Source: Candidatus Methanarcanum sp. (GTDB taxonomy: Archaea; Thermoplasmatota; Thermoplasmata; Methanomassiliicoccales; Methanomethylophilaceae). Taken from it: a DNA stretch of 64,000 nucleotides. Each line of letters begins with the position of its first letter. Position 1 is the first letter of the stretch. This document shows, piece after piece, positions 20,987 to 24,280 of the stretch. The position numbers and the translations under genes were made by a program. The notes under the pieces are model-generated. The model was not told where the DNA came from and ran no database searches. It saw nothing but the letters and a program-made list of their open reading frames with translations. The stretch covers positions 18,440 to 82,439 of the forward strand of contig JAZRYJ010000011.1 of assembly GCA_045600635.1 (NCBI GenBank), given 5' to 3'.

Positions 20987-21605
20987 TCTTGGCTTGAGAT
21001 ATCACATCTTTCAAAAATTTCGTCGCTGATACAATATCTTTCTGAGATGCGACTGCAGATACAACGGCGACACCGTCCGCACCTGCTTCGATGATCTCAT
21101 CTACATTATCTGCACCTATGCCGCCGATTGCAATTACCGGCACATTAACATTTTTAACTATTTCCTTCAATGTTTCAATGCCGTGTCCGTGACCTGCATC
21201 GAATTTGGTCTTCGTATCGAATATCGGACTCAATGCGACATATGTCGCACCTTCTGATTCTGCTCTGATTGCTTCTTTAACACTACCTACAGAAACACCG
21301 ATTATGAAGTCCTCAGATACCATTTTTCTGATATCTGGCACAGACATGTCATCTTGACCTACATGTACTCCGTCCGCACCTGAACATAACGCTATGTCAA
21401 CATTATCATTGACAATGAATGTTCTTCCCATCTCCCTGGAATATTCCGATATCTCTTTGGCCCACATCAAGAATCTGGGATCATCATTCTTAACACGGAG
21501 TTGAACAATATCAGCACCGCCGTCATATGCACGTTTGGCAACATCAACATGTGACAGCCCATTGGAGATTCTGTCATCTGTCACAACGTAAAGATCATAT
21601 TTCAT
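20961..21605 (-). CDS. thiE: Thiamine-phosphate synthase
   Basis: LYVVTD, VQLRVK, IVNDNVD, GVHVGQDD, SPIFDTKTK, AIGGI. Confidence 0.96.
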   Translation of the reverse strand: MKYDLYVVTDDRISNGLSHVDVAKRAYDGGADIVQLRVKNDDPRFLMWAKEISEYSREMGRTFIVNDNVDIALCSGADGVHVGQDDMSVPDIRKMVSEDFIIGVSVGSVKEAIRAESEGATYVALSPIFDTKTKFDAGHGHGIETLKEIVKNVNVPVIAIGGIGADNVDEIIEAGADGVAVVSAVASQKDIVSATKFLKDVISQAKIRASADRQ

Positions 21606-22384
21606 ATCCTTTCCATCCTGAGCCTGGCATTAAGATCGGCCCCGGAAAGATTGTAAACGGAATCCATAAGTTTCTGTTTGAATGTTCCAGGCCCTTCAGA
21701 ATTCTTCACAAGTTCTGAAGCAATTGTGAATGCTGATATGGCAGATGCAACGGAATTCATATTAACACCGTGTGTACCGACGTAGCATCCTACAACCGAG
21801 GACACCATGCACCCTGTACCAGATATCTTATTCAATATCGGATTTCCATTCTTTAAAATGAATATGCTGCGTCCGTCTGATACATAATCGATCTGTCCTG
21901 TCATTCCGACTACAGCATTCGTTTTTGCGGCAAGCGCCAGAGCAGCATCGCCTTTGTTTACCGTCCCTGAATCCACACCTCTGACCTTGGCATTGAATCC
22001 TGCAAGTGCGGATATCTCCCCGGCATTCCCTTTGATCACATCGATTTTAACAGCAGAAATGATGTCCTTCACAACATCGACCCTGTATGATGTGGCACCT
22101 GCACCCACAGGATCAAGAACGATCGGGATGTGATTCTCATTAGCTACTTTTCCTGCCTCGATCATCAGATTCTTCGTATCATCATTGACGGTACCGATAT
22201 TCAGCACCAATGATGATGACTGCGATACCATCTCCGATGCATCCTCGATCGCATCCACCATCACCGGCGAACCGCCCGAACACAGTGTAATGTTCGCACA
22301 GTCATTCACTGTAACATAATTGGTTATGTGACAGACTAGCGGCTTATTACTCCATACGCCTGTCATCATATCTCCAAGTGCCAT
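21602..22384 (-). CDS. thiM: Hydroxyethylthiazole kinase
   Basis: PLVCHITNYVTVNDCAN, LNIGT, LDPVGAGAT, KGNAGEI, GTGCM; start at 22384 (the ORF-track extension overlaps thrS). Confidence 0.95.
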   Translation of the reverse strand: MALGDMMTGVWSNKPLVCHITNYVTVNDCANITLCSGGSPVMVDAIEDASEMVSQSSSLVLNIGTVNDDTKNLMIEAGKVANENHIPIVLDPVGAGATSYRVDVVKDIISAVKIDVIKGNAGEISALAGFNAKVRGVDSGTVNKGDAALALAAKTNAVVGMTGQIDYVSDGRSIFILKNGNPILNKISGTGCMVSSVVGCYVGTHGVNMNSVASAISAFTIASELVKNSEGPGTFKQKLMDSVYNLSGADLNARLRMERI

Positions 22385-22480
22385 ATCCCTTCCATCGTCA
22401 TTCAATTTATAAAGTATAGTGTTCGCAACAGCGGTTTCGGACTCCCCAACTATTAATAGGACAATGGGTATGGCTGACAC

Positions 22481-22509
22481 AATCACTACCCGTTTGTAGA
22501 GGGATGATT
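22481..22509 (+). promoter_or_regulatory. Putative tRNA-Thr anticodon-mimic hairpin in the thrS leader
   Basis: AATCA/TGATT and CCC/GGG stems enclosing the 7-nt loop TTTGTAG; TATTAATA box at 22451-22458; ATG at 22514. Confidence 0.35.
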
Positions 22510-22513
22510 CTAG

Positions 22514-24280
22514 ATGAAAGCACTTTATAGCGATGGCAGAGTAGAAGAATGTACTGAAGAGAATGAACTGAAAACGATGAGACATACAGCCTCTCACATC
22601 ATGGCACAGGCTGTTCAGAGACTCTACCCTGGCACAAAATTGGCCATCGGTCCGGCTATCGACGATGGTTTCTATTATGACTTCGACAAGGAAGGCGGAT
22701 TCACACCCGATGACCTTGAAAAGATCGAAGCTGAGATGAAGAAGATCGTCAAAGAGAACCTCAAATTGGAGACATATACACTCCCGAGGAATGAAGCGAT
22801 CGAATACATGAAAGGAAGAGGAGAGATCTACAAAGTGGAACTCATCGAAGACCTTCCTGAGGATGCATCCATCAGCTTCTATAAGCAGGGTGAATTCACT
22901 GATCTCTGTGCAGGTCCGCATGTCACATACACCAAAGCAGTGAAAGCATTCAAACTCACGTCTCTCGCAGGCGCATACTGGCGTGGTAACGAGAAGAATA
23001 AGATGCTCTCAAGAATATACGGTACGGCATTCCAGGACAAAGAAAAGCTTGATGAATACCTTACAAAACTTGAGGAGATCAAAAAGAGAGACCACAGGAA
23101 ATTGGGCAAAGAACTGGGATTGTTCATGCTACTCGATGAAGGTCCTGGATTCCCGTTCTTCCTTCCCAAGGGCATGGTGCTCAAAAATGTCCTTATCGAT
23201 TATTGGAGAAAGATCCATCAGAGGGAGAATTATCTTGAAGTGTCCACCCCCCTAATCATGAGAAGACAACTCTGGGAACAGTCAGGGCATTGGGATCACT
23301 ACAAGGACAACATGTACACCACTGTAATCGAGGAAGAGGACTACTGTATCAAACCCATGAACTGTCCAGGAGGCGTTCTCGTTTACAAATCCGAACCGCA
23401 CTCATACAAAGAACTGCCGCTCAAGATCGGAGAACTCGGTATCGTCCACAGGCACGAAAGGTCGGGGACATTGCATGGTCTGATGAGAGTGAGATGTTTC
23501 ACACAGGATGATGCACATATCTTCATGACAAGGGAACAGATCACACATGAGATCAAAGAGGTCGTCAGATTGATAGATGAGGTATACTCATTATTCGGAT
23601 TCAAATATCATGTCGAACTGTCAACAAGACCAGAGGACAGCATGGGTTCGGATGAGGACTGGGAAGCAGCGACCAACGGTCTGGAATCAGCACTCAAAGA
23701 ACTCGGACTCAAATACGCTGTAAATGAAGGAGACGGTGCATTCTACGGACCTAAGATCGACTTCCATCTTGAGGATTCGATCGGAAGGACCTGGCAGTGC
23801 GGAACCATCCAGCTAGACTTCCAGATGCCGCAGAGGTTCGATATCAATTATGTCGGAACCGACGGTGAGAAACACAGGCCGATAATGATCCACAGGGTCT
23901 GTTTCGGTTCGATAGAAAGATTCATCGGAATCCTCATCGAACACTACGCAGGTAAGTTCCCAGCATGGCTGGCACCTGTTCAGGTCAAGATCCTTTCCGT
24001 TTCCGAGAAATCACGTCCGTATGCCCTGAAGGTAATGGAACAGATGAAGTCCAATGGCATCAGGTGCGAAACGGACAACAGAGATGAGAAGATCGGATAC
24101 AAGATCCGTGAGGCTCAACTTCAGAAAGTCCCATATATGCTCGTTCTCGGTGAAAAAGAGAGTGATGACGGTACGATCGTTGCTGTAAGAAGCAGGGACA
24201 AGGGAGACCTCGGTGCAGTGAATACCGACAAATTCATCTCCGACCTTCTTGAAGAGATCAGGACAAAAAAACAAGCCTGA
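22514..24280 (+). CDS. thrS: Threonyl-tRNA synthetase, bacterial type, without the N-terminal TGS domain
   Basis: RHTASH and DLCAGPH editing motifs, RDHRKLG, KPMNCP, HGLMRVRCFTQDDAH, AFYGPKID, MIHRVCFGSIERF. Confidence 0.97.
   Translation: MKALYSDGRVEECTEENELKTMRHTASHIMAQAVQRLYPGTKLAIGPAIDDGFYYDFDKEGGFTPDDLEKIEAEMKKIVKENLKLETYTLPRNEAIEYMKGRGEIYKVELIEDLPEDASISFYKQGEFTDLCAGPHVTYTKAVKAFKLTSLAGAYWRGNEKNKMLSRIYGTAFQDKEKLDEYLTKLEEIKKRDHRKLGKELGLFMLLDEGPGFPFFLPKGMVLKNVLIDYWRKIHQRENYLEVSTPLIMRRQLWEQSGHWDHYKDNMYTTVIEEEDYCIKPMNCPGGVLVYKSEPHSYKELPLKIGELGIVHRHERSGTLHGLMRVRCFTQDDAHIFMTREQITHEIKEVVRLIDEVYSLFGFKYHVELSTRPEDSMGSDEDWEAATNGLESALKELGLKYAVNEGDGAFYGPKIDFHLEDSIGRTWQCGTIQLDFQMPQRFDINYVGTDGEKHRPIMIHRVCFGSIERFIGILIEHYAGKFPAWLAPVQVKILSVSEKSRPYALKVMEQMKSNGIRCETDNRDEKIGYKIREAQLQKVPYMLVLGEKESDDGTIVAVRSRDKGDLGAVNTDKFISDLLEEIRTKKQA

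What the first reader, a model, noticed from the sequence alone, without database searches (positions are those of the whole stretch)
22451..22516. tRNA-Thr anticodon-mimic hairpin over the thrS ribosome-binding region: possible ThrRS translational autoregulation in an archaeon
Seen: a TATTAATA box at 22451-22458 predicts a start near 22481. The ~33-nt leader then folds as AATCA(22481-85)/TGATT(22505-09), a T-A pair and CCC/GGG, with a G.A opposition closing the 7-nt loop UU-UGU-AG. UGU at 22495-97 sits in the anticodon register of tRNA-Thr(UGU). The 3' arm contains the SD-like GAGGGA and ends 4 nt before the ATG. Established: E. coli ThrRS represses its own translation by binding leader hairpins that mimic the tRNA-Thr anticodon loop (G35/U36 identity), whereas Firmicutes use T-boxes. 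The enzyme here is bacterial-type. I know of no such operator described in archaea. Caveat: the inner stem is short, and an alternative CTAC/GTAG pairing competes.
Basis: partly seen in the sequence, partly recalled or inferred. Interest (0 to 1): 0.7.

Follow-up and report, generated by a model that had tools for sequence, protein, structure and literature searches.

The report
tRNA-Thr anticodon mimic before archaeal thrS
The short mRNA leader of this archaeon's bacterial-derived threonyl-tRNA synthetase gene carries a small hairpin whose loop copies the anticodon loop of threonine tRNA; relatives keep that loop while the stem changes, so the enzyme probably switches off its own translation, as it does in E. 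coli.

Summary
Folded alone, the window's hairpin is no more stable than shuffled sequence (-6.1 kcal/mol, z -0.16).

Comparison with relatives gives the real support.
- The gene is a TGS-less bacterial-type ThrRS. Methanomethylophilaceae acquired it once from gut Clostridia, whose copies carry T-box leaders.
- I read 103 archaeal thrS leaders. About 60 have a hairpin next to or overlapping the SD with N-G-U-A at its apex (N34 = U 33, C 25, G 4).
- The stems differ completely between genera and covary.
- TTGTA is the most enriched 5-mer in the leaders.
- A covariance model built only from these leaders finds the real tRNA-Thr(UGU) anticodon arm as its next-best genomic hit in the two species (of the 15 genomes searched) whose runner-up hits I checked.
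- Within the window's genus, the 22-nt hairpin+SD block is 95-99% identical. That is more conserved than the coding sequence.

Weak points:
- The outer stem is specific to this window.
- The loop has been lost in many lineages.
- The TSS is not mapped.
- No binding has been tested.

Best reading (about 0.55): a single-hairpin ThrRS translational operator that evolved independently of the E. coli one. I found no archaeal report of this, though my literature search was limited.

The parts
22451..22458 (+). TATA box (TATTAATA) of the thrS promoter
   Evidence: Sequence. Identical in 9 species of the genus, 37-39 nt upstream of the conserved hairpin block. Archaeal TATA boxes centre about 26-27 nt before the TSS (established knowledge), which predicts a start near 22481-22485. 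This is inferred, not mapped.
22481..22485 (+). Outer 5' arm AATCA, pairs with TGATT 22505-09
   Evidence: Part of the RNAfold MFE. Not conserved: congeners have GATTG, GATCA, GATTA or ATATG here. Probably not part of the conserved element.
22489..22491 (+). Inner 5' arm CCC
   Evidence: Pairs with GGG 22501-03. Conserved as ACCC-R-loop-R-GGG in genus g1, in g6 and in one g26 group. TCC/GGA in G002.
22493..22499 (+). 7-nt loop UUUGUAG. It is flanked by the G22492/A22500 purine-purine apposition. UGU 22495-97 occupies anticodon positions 34-36, with U33 = 22494 and A37 = 22498.
   Evidence: The tRNA-Thr loops of the same genome are CUUGUAA, UUCGUAA and UUGGUAA. U-N-G-U-A is conserved on unrelated stems in g5, g6, g8 and g26.
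22501..22503 (+). Inner 3' arm GGG, which is also part of the SD
22505..22509 (+). Outer 3' arm TGATT, which is also part of the SD
   Evidence: TGAT(T/C) is complementary to the 16S 3' end GGATCACCTCCT and is conserved as SD sequence, not as a stem.
22500..22510 (+). Extended Shine-Dalgarno AGGGAUGAUUC
   Evidence: 9 of 11 positions can pair (including 2 G.U) with the 16S 3' end found in the genome. The same GGAGaUGAUU-type SD is seen in g5, g14 and g26 leaders.
22514..24280 (+). thrS: a 588-aa bacterial-type ThrRS without the N1/TGS domain
   Evidence: ORF, Pfam, PDB 1QF6 and 6VU9. 65-76% identical to Clostridia ThrRS. Forms a single archaeal clade in the tree.

Best explanation
The element is a cis-acting RNA operator in the roughly 33-nt 5' UTR of thrS. 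[quoted passage not shown]

Proposed mechanism (inferred): when ThrRS exceeds its uncharged tRNA-Thr, its C-terminal anticodon-binding domain binds the loop through G35/U36. The bound 2 x 68-kDa dimer covers the SD, or in this genus also stabilises the weak stem that sequesters it. The 30S subunit then cannot load, and thrS translation falls. Free tRNA-Thr competes for the same site and relieves the block.

The element arose in Methanomethylophilaceae after they acquired a Clostridial thrS and lost its T-box. It is therefore convergent with the E. coli thrS operator, not homologous to it.

Shown here: the sequence, its conservation, stem covariation, its resemblance to tRNA-Thr, its position next to the SD, and the enzyme type.

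Inferred: the TSS, ThrRS binding, repression, and competition by tRNA.
For: 1. Different stems carry the same loop:
- g1: CCC-G-UUUGUAA-A-GGG
- g6: CCC-A-CUUGUAA-G-GGG
- g5: CACGCGG-GUUGUAG-CCGCGUG and CCCGGG-GUUGUAA-CUCGGG
- g8, all 20 genomes: CGCCU-GUUGUAU-GGGCG, with compensated variants ACGUCC/GGGCGU and GUGCCU/GGGUAC
- g26: CCCGA-CUUCGUAU-UCGGG, CCC-AUUCGUA-GGG and CCGGC-GAGGUAU-GUCG

2. Covariation on 19 unique hairpins:
- 74% of cells are paired, against 50% when shuffled.
- 24 cells changed on both sides, against 8.4.
- The covariation score is 0.529 against 0.158 (0 of 500 shuffles reach it). Slid controls score 0.05-0.17.

3. Unbiased statistics:
- TTGTA is the top 5-mer in -45..-12 of 41 non-redundant leaders: 9 observed, 0.48 expected, p 2.5e-9.
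- The triplets most often found at positions 34-36 are UGU (9 clusters) and CGU (6). GUA is top at 35-37, with 12 clusters against 5 for the next.
- The inclusive detector finds 62 of 103 genomes and 16 of 41 clusters, against 3.05 in shuffles with a maximum of 10 in 500.

4. N34 is U in 33 genomes, C in 25 and G in 4, which are the three Thr anticodons, while G35-U36-A37 stay fixed. This is the pattern expected from bacterial ThrRS identity rules.

5. Covariance model R1, built from leaders only, ranks the thrS leader first in 14 of 15 genomes. Its next-best hit in G053 and G018 is the anticodon arm of the tRNA-Thr(UGU) gene.

6. Geometry resembles E. coli. N34 lies at -19 here and at -26 to -31 in g5, g8 and g26. 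In E. coli domain 2 (GUGAUCU-UUCGUGU-GGGUCAC) it is C-33.

7. G.U outnumbers A.C by 14 to 2 in the stem. This indicates a sense-strand RNA, not a DNA palindrome.

8. In a g26 species, RNA contigs reach -35 and -29, inside a hairpin that spans -36..-21.

9. The closest bacterial homologues use T-boxes. The archaeal-type thrS of sister genera is leaderless or short-leadered, with no hairpin.

10. The enzyme keeps the HGTP anticodon-binding domain and the N2 domain.
Against: - The window's own hairpin is thermodynamically ordinary (z -0.16). It has only 3 G-C pairs plus a G/A apposition.
- The outer stem is not conserved.
- About 40% of genomes keep a hairpin before the SD but with 3-6-nt loops lacking N-G-U. 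These are g7, g14, g23-25, 4 of 7 in g5 and about half of g26. The tree needs about 10 state changes. So the mimic is dispensable, and a plain hairpin may be the core function.
- One congener (G007) has UGC in the loop.
- There is a single hairpin, against two in E. coli, and the ThrRS lacks the N1 domain.
- In the M. alvus-like species no low-depth RNA contig crosses the hairpin. Two contigs end at -16/-15, exactly at its 3' foot. This is compatible with a TSS or a processing site downstream of the hairpin.
- No binding or expression data exist.
- The clusters used in the statistics are related by descent.
Confidence: 0.55

Rival explanations
1. The functional unit is simply a 5'-proximal hairpin. 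It would protect the 5' end of the mRNA from exonucleases or tune SD accessibility. The U-N-G-U-A loop would then be kept for another reason, such as an unknown RNA-binding protein or a loop-geometry preference, and ThrRS plays no part.
For: A hairpin just 5' of or overlapping the SD is present in essentially all 103 leaders, including the roughly 40% that lack the Thr-like loop. Leader fold z-scores are shifted only mildly (mean -0.68, p 0.001). In g1, g6, g7 and g14 the 3' arm is itself SD sequence.
Against: It does not explain several observations:
- The loop letters outlast complete turnover of the stem.
- Only position 34 varies, and only among the three Thr anticodons.
- The leader model retrieves tRNA-Thr.
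- The motif has no second conserved site in the genomes, so a general RNA-binding-protein site is unlikely.
Confidence: 0.25
2. The inverted repeat works as DNA. It would be an operator for a dimeric transcription factor sitting at or just after the TSS and blocking RNA polymerase.
For: It lies 24-35 nt downstream of the TATA box, where archaeal repressors usually bind. In the M. alvus-like species, RNA contigs stop at its 3' foot.
Against: - The arms vary and covary while the non-palindromic centre is fixed. This is the opposite of a transcription-factor operator.
- G.U pairs outnumber A.C 14 to 2.
- In g26 the hairpin lies 10-20 nt downstream of the predicted TSS, and RNA contigs enter it.
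Confidence: 0.07
3. In this window the resemblance is chance plus ordinary conservation of the SD region, and it has no function.
For: z = -0.16. 2% of upstream regions in this genome pass the same loose test. Half of the conserved 22-nt block is SD.
Against: The loop half (CCCGUUUGUAR), which is not SD, is as conserved as the SD across the genus, while the CDS is only 63-84% identical. The family-wide enrichment and covariation also argue against chance.
Confidence: 0.1

Closest known systems
E. coli thrS translational operator (ThrRS autoregulation; domains 1-4; PDB 1KOG; summarised in PMC11088916)
   Same: A leader hairpin with a 7-nt loop carries N-G-U at positions 34-36, after U33 and before a purine at 37. 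It lies a few nucleotides 5' of the SD and AUG, at a similar distance (E. coli C-33/G-32/U-31; here -19, and -26 to -31 in sister genera). The enzyme is the same bacterial type, with N2, catalytic and anticodon-binding domains.
   Different: There is no sequence homology, and the origin is independent, after transfer of the gene from T-box-using Clostridia. It has one hairpin, not two (domains 2 and 4). The leader is about 33 nt, against about 160 nt. The transcript is archaeal, from a TATA/TFB promoter. The ThrRS lacks N1/TGS. In this genus the stem is 3 bp and overlaps the SD. Binding is untested.
Yeast aaRS-mRNA anticodon mimics (HisRS/HTS1, PMC6542539; ThrRS-RPC10, PMC9956033)
   Same: A synthetase binds an anticodon-stem-loop-like element in an mRNA and lowers its translation in response to tRNA levels.
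   Different: Those elements are eukaryotic, lie inside or near coding sequence, and involve no SD occlusion.
T-box leader (RF00230) of the Clostridial donor lineage
   Same: It controls the orthologous thrS gene in response to tRNA-Thr status. It is present upstream of the closest bacterial homologues.
   Different: It is about 200 nt long, binds tRNA directly through a codon (not an anticodon) in its specifier loop, and acts by transcription antitermination. No Rfam hit in L001 (1,500 nt each side of the window's thrS) or at the M. alvus-like locus.
Anticodon-arm mimics in bacterial thrS leaders noted earlier in this scan (Coriobacteriia, a TGS-less ThrRS bacterium, an alphaproteobacterium)
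   Same: The idea is the same. One note describes a single CGU+A hairpin with G at about -28, next to the SD of a TGS-truncated ThrRS.
   Different: These are bacterial and are unchecked AI notes. In my tree the Coriobacteriia homologue falls outside the Clostridia+archaea clade. Their leaders are long and differently structured.

Membership tests
E. coli-type thrS translational operator | A leader hairpin whose 7-nt loop carries the Thr anticodon-like N-G-U at positions 34-36, with U33 and R37 | tested here: met
   The window loop is UUUGUAG. It is closed by a G/A apposition rather than a Watson-Crick pair. Sister genera have canonical 5-8-bp stems with GUUGUAN loops.
E. coli-type thrS translational operator | Two anticodon-like hairpins (domains 2 and 4), one for each subunit of the ThrRS dimer | tested here: not met
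   There is one hairpin. The predicted leader is about 33 nt, and model R1 finds no second copy near thrS.
E. coli-type thrS translational operator | The mimic is placed just 5' of the ribosome-binding site, so that bound enzyme and the 30S subunit compete | tested here: met
   The 3' arm overlaps the SD at 22500-22510. N34 is at -19 here, against -33 in E. coli.
E. coli-type thrS translational operator | Sequence homology or common descent with the enterobacterial operator | tested here: not met
   The gene came from Clostridia with T-box leaders. The stems are unrelated.
E. coli-type thrS translational operator | ThrRS binds the leader in a G35/U36-dependent way and represses translation, and tRNA-Thr competes | not testable with these tools
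   Needs EMSA or filter binding, toeprinting and reporter assays.
E. coli-type thrS translational operator | The repressor has the N-terminal domains needed to exclude the ribosome | tested here: inconclusive
   N2 (tRNA_SAD) is present and N1/TGS is absent. The query aligns from residue 63 of 1QF6.
T-box riboswitch (RF00230) | A match to the Rfam covariance model, with specifier loop, T-box sequence and terminator/antiterminator | tested here: not met
   No hit in L001 or L198, while 12 bacterial homologue loci hit. A 33-nt leader cannot hold one.
Conserved structured cis-regulatory RNA (generic) | Base pairs maintained by compensatory changes across lineages, and the element is transcribed | tested here: met
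   Covariation. G.U against A.C asymmetry. RNA contigs enter the hairpin in a g26 species. The TSS in this genus is not mapped.

The most novel reading that the evidence does not exclude
This would be, as far as my limited literature searches show, the first archaeal aminoacyl-tRNA synthetase that represses its own translation through tRNA anticodon-arm mimicry. The minimal one-hairpin operator would have been invented de novo in Methanomethylophilaceae after they captured a Clostridial thrS and lost its T-box, which cannot work in archaea. Natural U/C/G34 variants and repeated losses would record how easily such operators are gained and lost. If so, anticodon-mimic operators are a recurrent, easily evolved solution wherever a bacterial-type ThrRS meets an SD-led mRNA, in either domain.
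Probability: 0.5. Interest if true: 0.8.

Novelty: new variant of a known kind. Interest (0 to 1): 0.7.

Why it matters
Translational autoregulation of a synthetase by tRNA mimicry is a textbook case known mainly from E. coli thrS. In the limited literature searches I ran I found no archaeal example.

Here the same logic appears to have been rebuilt from scratch, on a 33-nt archaeal leader, after an inter-domain gene transfer removed the donor's T-box. This gives:
- a natural experiment in how regulation is replaced after horizontal transfer;
- a minimal one-hairpin version of the operator;
- a testable case of SD-dependent translational control in a methanogen lineage from human and animal guts. 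Methanomethylophilus alvus, which carries a much stronger version of the hairpin, is culturable.

It also shows that a hairpin which is unconvincing by energy alone can be validated by loop conservation on changing stems.

Tried and rejected
- RNA-seq for the window's own organism: no run holds it.
- Transcript 5' ends for the M. alvus-like species: only low-depth Logan contigs exist. Their ends scatter (-16, -15, -4, -2, +15 and further). One 760-nt contig runs through the whole intergenic region, probably from read-through or DNA. The result is inconclusive.
- Rfam: no hit in L001, the 4.8-kb locus around the window's thrS.
- Outer stem AATCA/TGATT and the competing CTAC/GTAG pairing: both are window-specific and were rejected as conserved structure.
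- A regulon: the covariance model found no second conserved mRNA site. Other hits of 17-23 bits lie inside coding regions.
- DNA-palindrome operator: disfavoured by variable arms with a fixed centre and by the G.U/A.C asymmetry.
- Inheritance of the mimic from the bacterial donor: rejected. The sister Clostridia have T-boxes, strict scans of 76 bacterial homologue leaders found no comparable hairpin, and Coriobacteriia lie outside the clade.
- t6A-machinery target (needs U36-A37-A38): A38 is not conserved.
- Pairing of the loop with the Leu-Tyr codons (UUGUAC) of the CDS: considered. It is absent in g8 (Leu-Phe), so I did not pursue it.
- The first tree was corrupted by antisense ORFs in GC-rich loci. 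I rebuilt it.
Full report
**1. What is in the window**

thrS is the ORF at 22514-24280 (+), 588 aa. Pfam finds tRNA_SAD, tRNA-synt_2b and HGTP_anticodon but no TGS domain. The protein aligns to E. coli ThrRS (1QF6) residues 63-635 at E 1e-181. It is therefore a bacterial-type enzyme that lacks only N1.

Upstream lies a divergent thiM (HK family). Its likely start is 22384 on the minus strand, and it has its own TTTATAAA at 22406-13.

- TATTAATA at 22451-58
- AATCA 22481-85 pairing with TGATT 22505-09
- T22487 pairing with A22504
- CCC 22489-91 pairing with GGG 22501-03
- G22492 opposite A22500
- loop UUUGUAG at 22493-99, with UGU at 22495-97

The 16S rRNA of this genome ends in GGATCACCTCCT. 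The SD is therefore the long stretch AGGGAUGAUUC at 22500-10, and both 3' arms of the hairpin are SD sequence.

**2. Is it more than chance on its own? No.**

However, z = -0.16, and 79 of 200 shuffles fold as well. A loose detector that accepts this hairpin also fires on 27 of 1338 ORF upstream regions of the same genome.

**3. Origin of the gene**

The window belongs to Methanomethylophilaceae, judging from record titles. The bacterial-type thrS is present in 108 of 174 genomes of the family. Other genera, and the rest of the order, have a ThrRS that is only 24-29% identical (archaeal-type).

In a maximum-likelihood tree the 48 sampled archaeal sequences form one clade (SH-aLRT 88). This clade is sister to gut Clostridia. 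Identity to Lachnospiraceae and other Clostridia is 65-76%. That some Methanomassiliicoccales took a bacterial ThrRS is already in the literature (PMC4427996).

The bacterial homologues carry T-box leaders: 7 loci score above the Rfam gathering threshold, and 5 more have E of 2.5e-7 or better, including the nearest bacterial sequence L034. The archaeal loci have none.

The archaeal-type thrS of sister genera has its TATA box about 28-38 nt before the ATG. It is therefore leaderless or nearly so, with no hairpin.

**4. Comparative anatomy of 103 archaeal leaders**

Within the window's genus:

| Segment | Pairwise identity |
|---|---|
| TATA box | 100% |
| 22-nt block ACCCGUUUGUARAGGGAUGAUU | 95-99% |
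| Spacer between TATA and block | 47-69% |
| First 90 nt of CDS | 63-84% |

In other genera the stems are unrelated but the loop persists:

| Genus | Hairpin |
|---|---|
| g6 | CCC-A-CUUGUAA-G-GGG (loop identical to the tRNA-Thr(UGU) loop of this genome) |
| g5 (3 of 7 genomes) | CACGCGG-GUUGUAG-CCGCGUG and CCCGGG-GUUGUAA-CUCGGG |
| g8 (20 of 20; Methanomethylophilus, inferred from the 1,666,795-bp genome size) | CGCCU-GUUGUAU-GGGCG, with compensated variants ACGUCC/GGGCGU, GUGCCU/GGGUAC, CCGCCU/GGGCGG |
| g26 (about half) | 8-nt loops N-N-(U/A)-CGUA-(U/G) on several different stems; GAGGUAU in G104; CCCGUAU in G099 |

N34 sits at -19/-20 in g1 and g6, and at -26 to -31 elsewhere.

**5. Statistics**

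- TTGTA is the most enriched 5-mer in -45..-12 of 41 leader clusters: 9 observed, 0.48 expected, p 2.5e-9.
- Among all hairpins of the class, UGU (9 clusters) and CGU (6) are the commonest triplets in the 34-36 register. GUA is commonest at 35-37, with 12 clusters against 5 for the next.
- A strict detector finds 12 of 41 clusters, against 0.95 in dinucleotide shuffles.
- An inclusive detector finds 62 of 103 genomes and 16 of 41 clusters, against 3.05 in shuffles with a maximum of 10 in 500. N34 is U 33, C 25, G 4.
- On a gap-free alignment of 19 unique hairpins, 74% of pair cells are standard pairs, against 50% when shuffled. 24 cells are changed on both sides, against 8.4. The covariation score is 0.529 against 0.158 (0 of 500), and slid controls score 0.05-0.17.
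- G.U outnumbers A.C 14 to 2, which indicates an RNA read from the sense strand.

Two caveats apply to these numbers. The clusters share ancestry, and the hairpin alignment was chosen by motif and position. So the numbers show constraint on the sequence. They do not count independent inventions.

**6. Independent check of the mimicry**

I built a covariance model from the leader hairpins alone and searched 15 whole genomes with it. The thrS leader was the top hit in 14 of them. In G053 and G018 the next-best hit (20.7 bits) is the anticodon arm of the tRNA-Thr(UGU) gene. The remaining weak hits lie in coding sequence. I saw no second conserved mRNA target, so the motif is specific to thrS.

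**7. Comparison with E. coli**

Folding the MG1655 thrS leader gives domain 2 as GUGAUCU-UUCGUGU-GGGUCAC, with C-33, G-32 and U-31. Domain 4 has the loop AUUUGUUG. This matches the published operator (PMC11088916).

The archaeal element has the same loop design and a similar distance to the AUG. It differs in being a single hairpin on a short leader, with no sequence relationship to the E. coli operator.

**8. Is the hairpin transcribed?**

The best TATA match lies a median of 33.5 nt upstream of the hairpin's 5' base (IQR 23-40). The expected TATA-to-TSS distance is about 26 nt, so the hairpin should start 0-14 nt into the transcript.

For a g26 species, metatranscriptome contigs reach -35 and -29, inside a hairpin that spans -36..-21.

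For the M. alvus-like species, no low-depth RNA contig crosses the hairpin. Two contigs from different studies end at -16/-15, exactly at its 3' foot. This could be the usual loss of about 20 nt at the 5' end in such libraries. The g26 contigs also stop about 19 nt short of the TATA-predicted start. It could also be a processing site or a downstream TSS. The question remains open, and it is the main risk to the interpretation.

**9. What weakens the reading**

- The mimic loop is absent from g7, g14, g23-25, 4 of 7 genomes in g5 and about half of g26. These still have a 4-7-bp hairpin before the SD, but with 3-6-nt loops.
- The tree needs about 10 changes of state, most simply losses from an ancestral mimic.
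- G007 reads UGC, and G002 has lost G35.
- Leader fold z-scores are only mildly negative overall (mean -0.68).
- In the window's genus the stem is minimal.

**10. Verdict**

On its own it is weak. In the family context it is a real, selected RNA element that copies the tRNA-Thr anticodon loop beside the SD of a bacterial-type thrS.

The most likely mechanism is ThrRS-mediated translational feedback of the E. coli kind, evolved independently (confidence about 0.55). The main rival is a generic 5' hairpin whose loop is conserved for some other reason (about 0.25).

Earlier unchecked notes of this scan report similar mimics in several bacterial thrS leaders. This suggests the solution recurs. I found no archaeal report.

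Noticed in passing
G017:C1:1654517-1656227 (L017): In one complete 1.66-Mb genome of genus g7, the bacterial-type thrS is decayed: 5 TGA and 1 TAG in frame, with pieces in several frames. No archaeal-type ThrRS appears among its hits. How this organism charges tRNA-Thr is unclear. Alternatively, the region at the contig end is misassembled.
   Followed up: no
L198 2017-2018 (G053:C1, -16/-15 of thrS): Two RNA contigs from different metatranscriptome studies end exactly at the 3' foot of the M. alvus-type hairpin. This could be a real 5' end (TSS or processing site) or a library artefact.
   Followed up: partly
window 22384-22413: The divergent thiM (HK family, 21602-22384 minus strand) has TTTATAAA at 22406-13, about 25 nt from its ATG. 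It is probably a leaderless mRNA, in contrast to the SD-led thrS beside it.
   Followed up: no
L013 (G007) and L014 (G005) leaders: Two sister species of the genus carry GUUGCAA (UGC, an Ala-like triplet) and GUCGUGA (CGU) in the loop. The G007 thrS hit also contains an in-frame TAA. This may be a natural loss of the mimic or a low-quality MAG.
   Followed up: no
L137 and L139 (G044:C77 and G044:C3): One g7 MAG has two full-length bacterial-type thrS copies on different contigs, with nearly identical leaders. This is either a duplication or strain redundancy in the bin.
   Followed up: no
g26 leaders, e.g. L132, L136, L115: The Thr-like loops in this genus are consistently 8 nt. CGUA stays in a fixed register to the 3' arm, with one extra nucleotide on the 5' side.
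   Followed up: partly
L091, L096, L105, L106, L109, L110 (Coriobacteriia homologues): These TGS-less thrS genes start MKAL like the archaeal ones. They lack the T-box motif and have long structured leaders containing GCGCUUGUAU.
   Followed up: partly
L018-L030: The archaeal-type thrS of other Methanomassiliicoccales has its TATA box 28-38 nt before the ATG, so it is leaderless or has a very short leader. The two ThrRS types thus come with different translation-initiation modes.
   Followed up: partly
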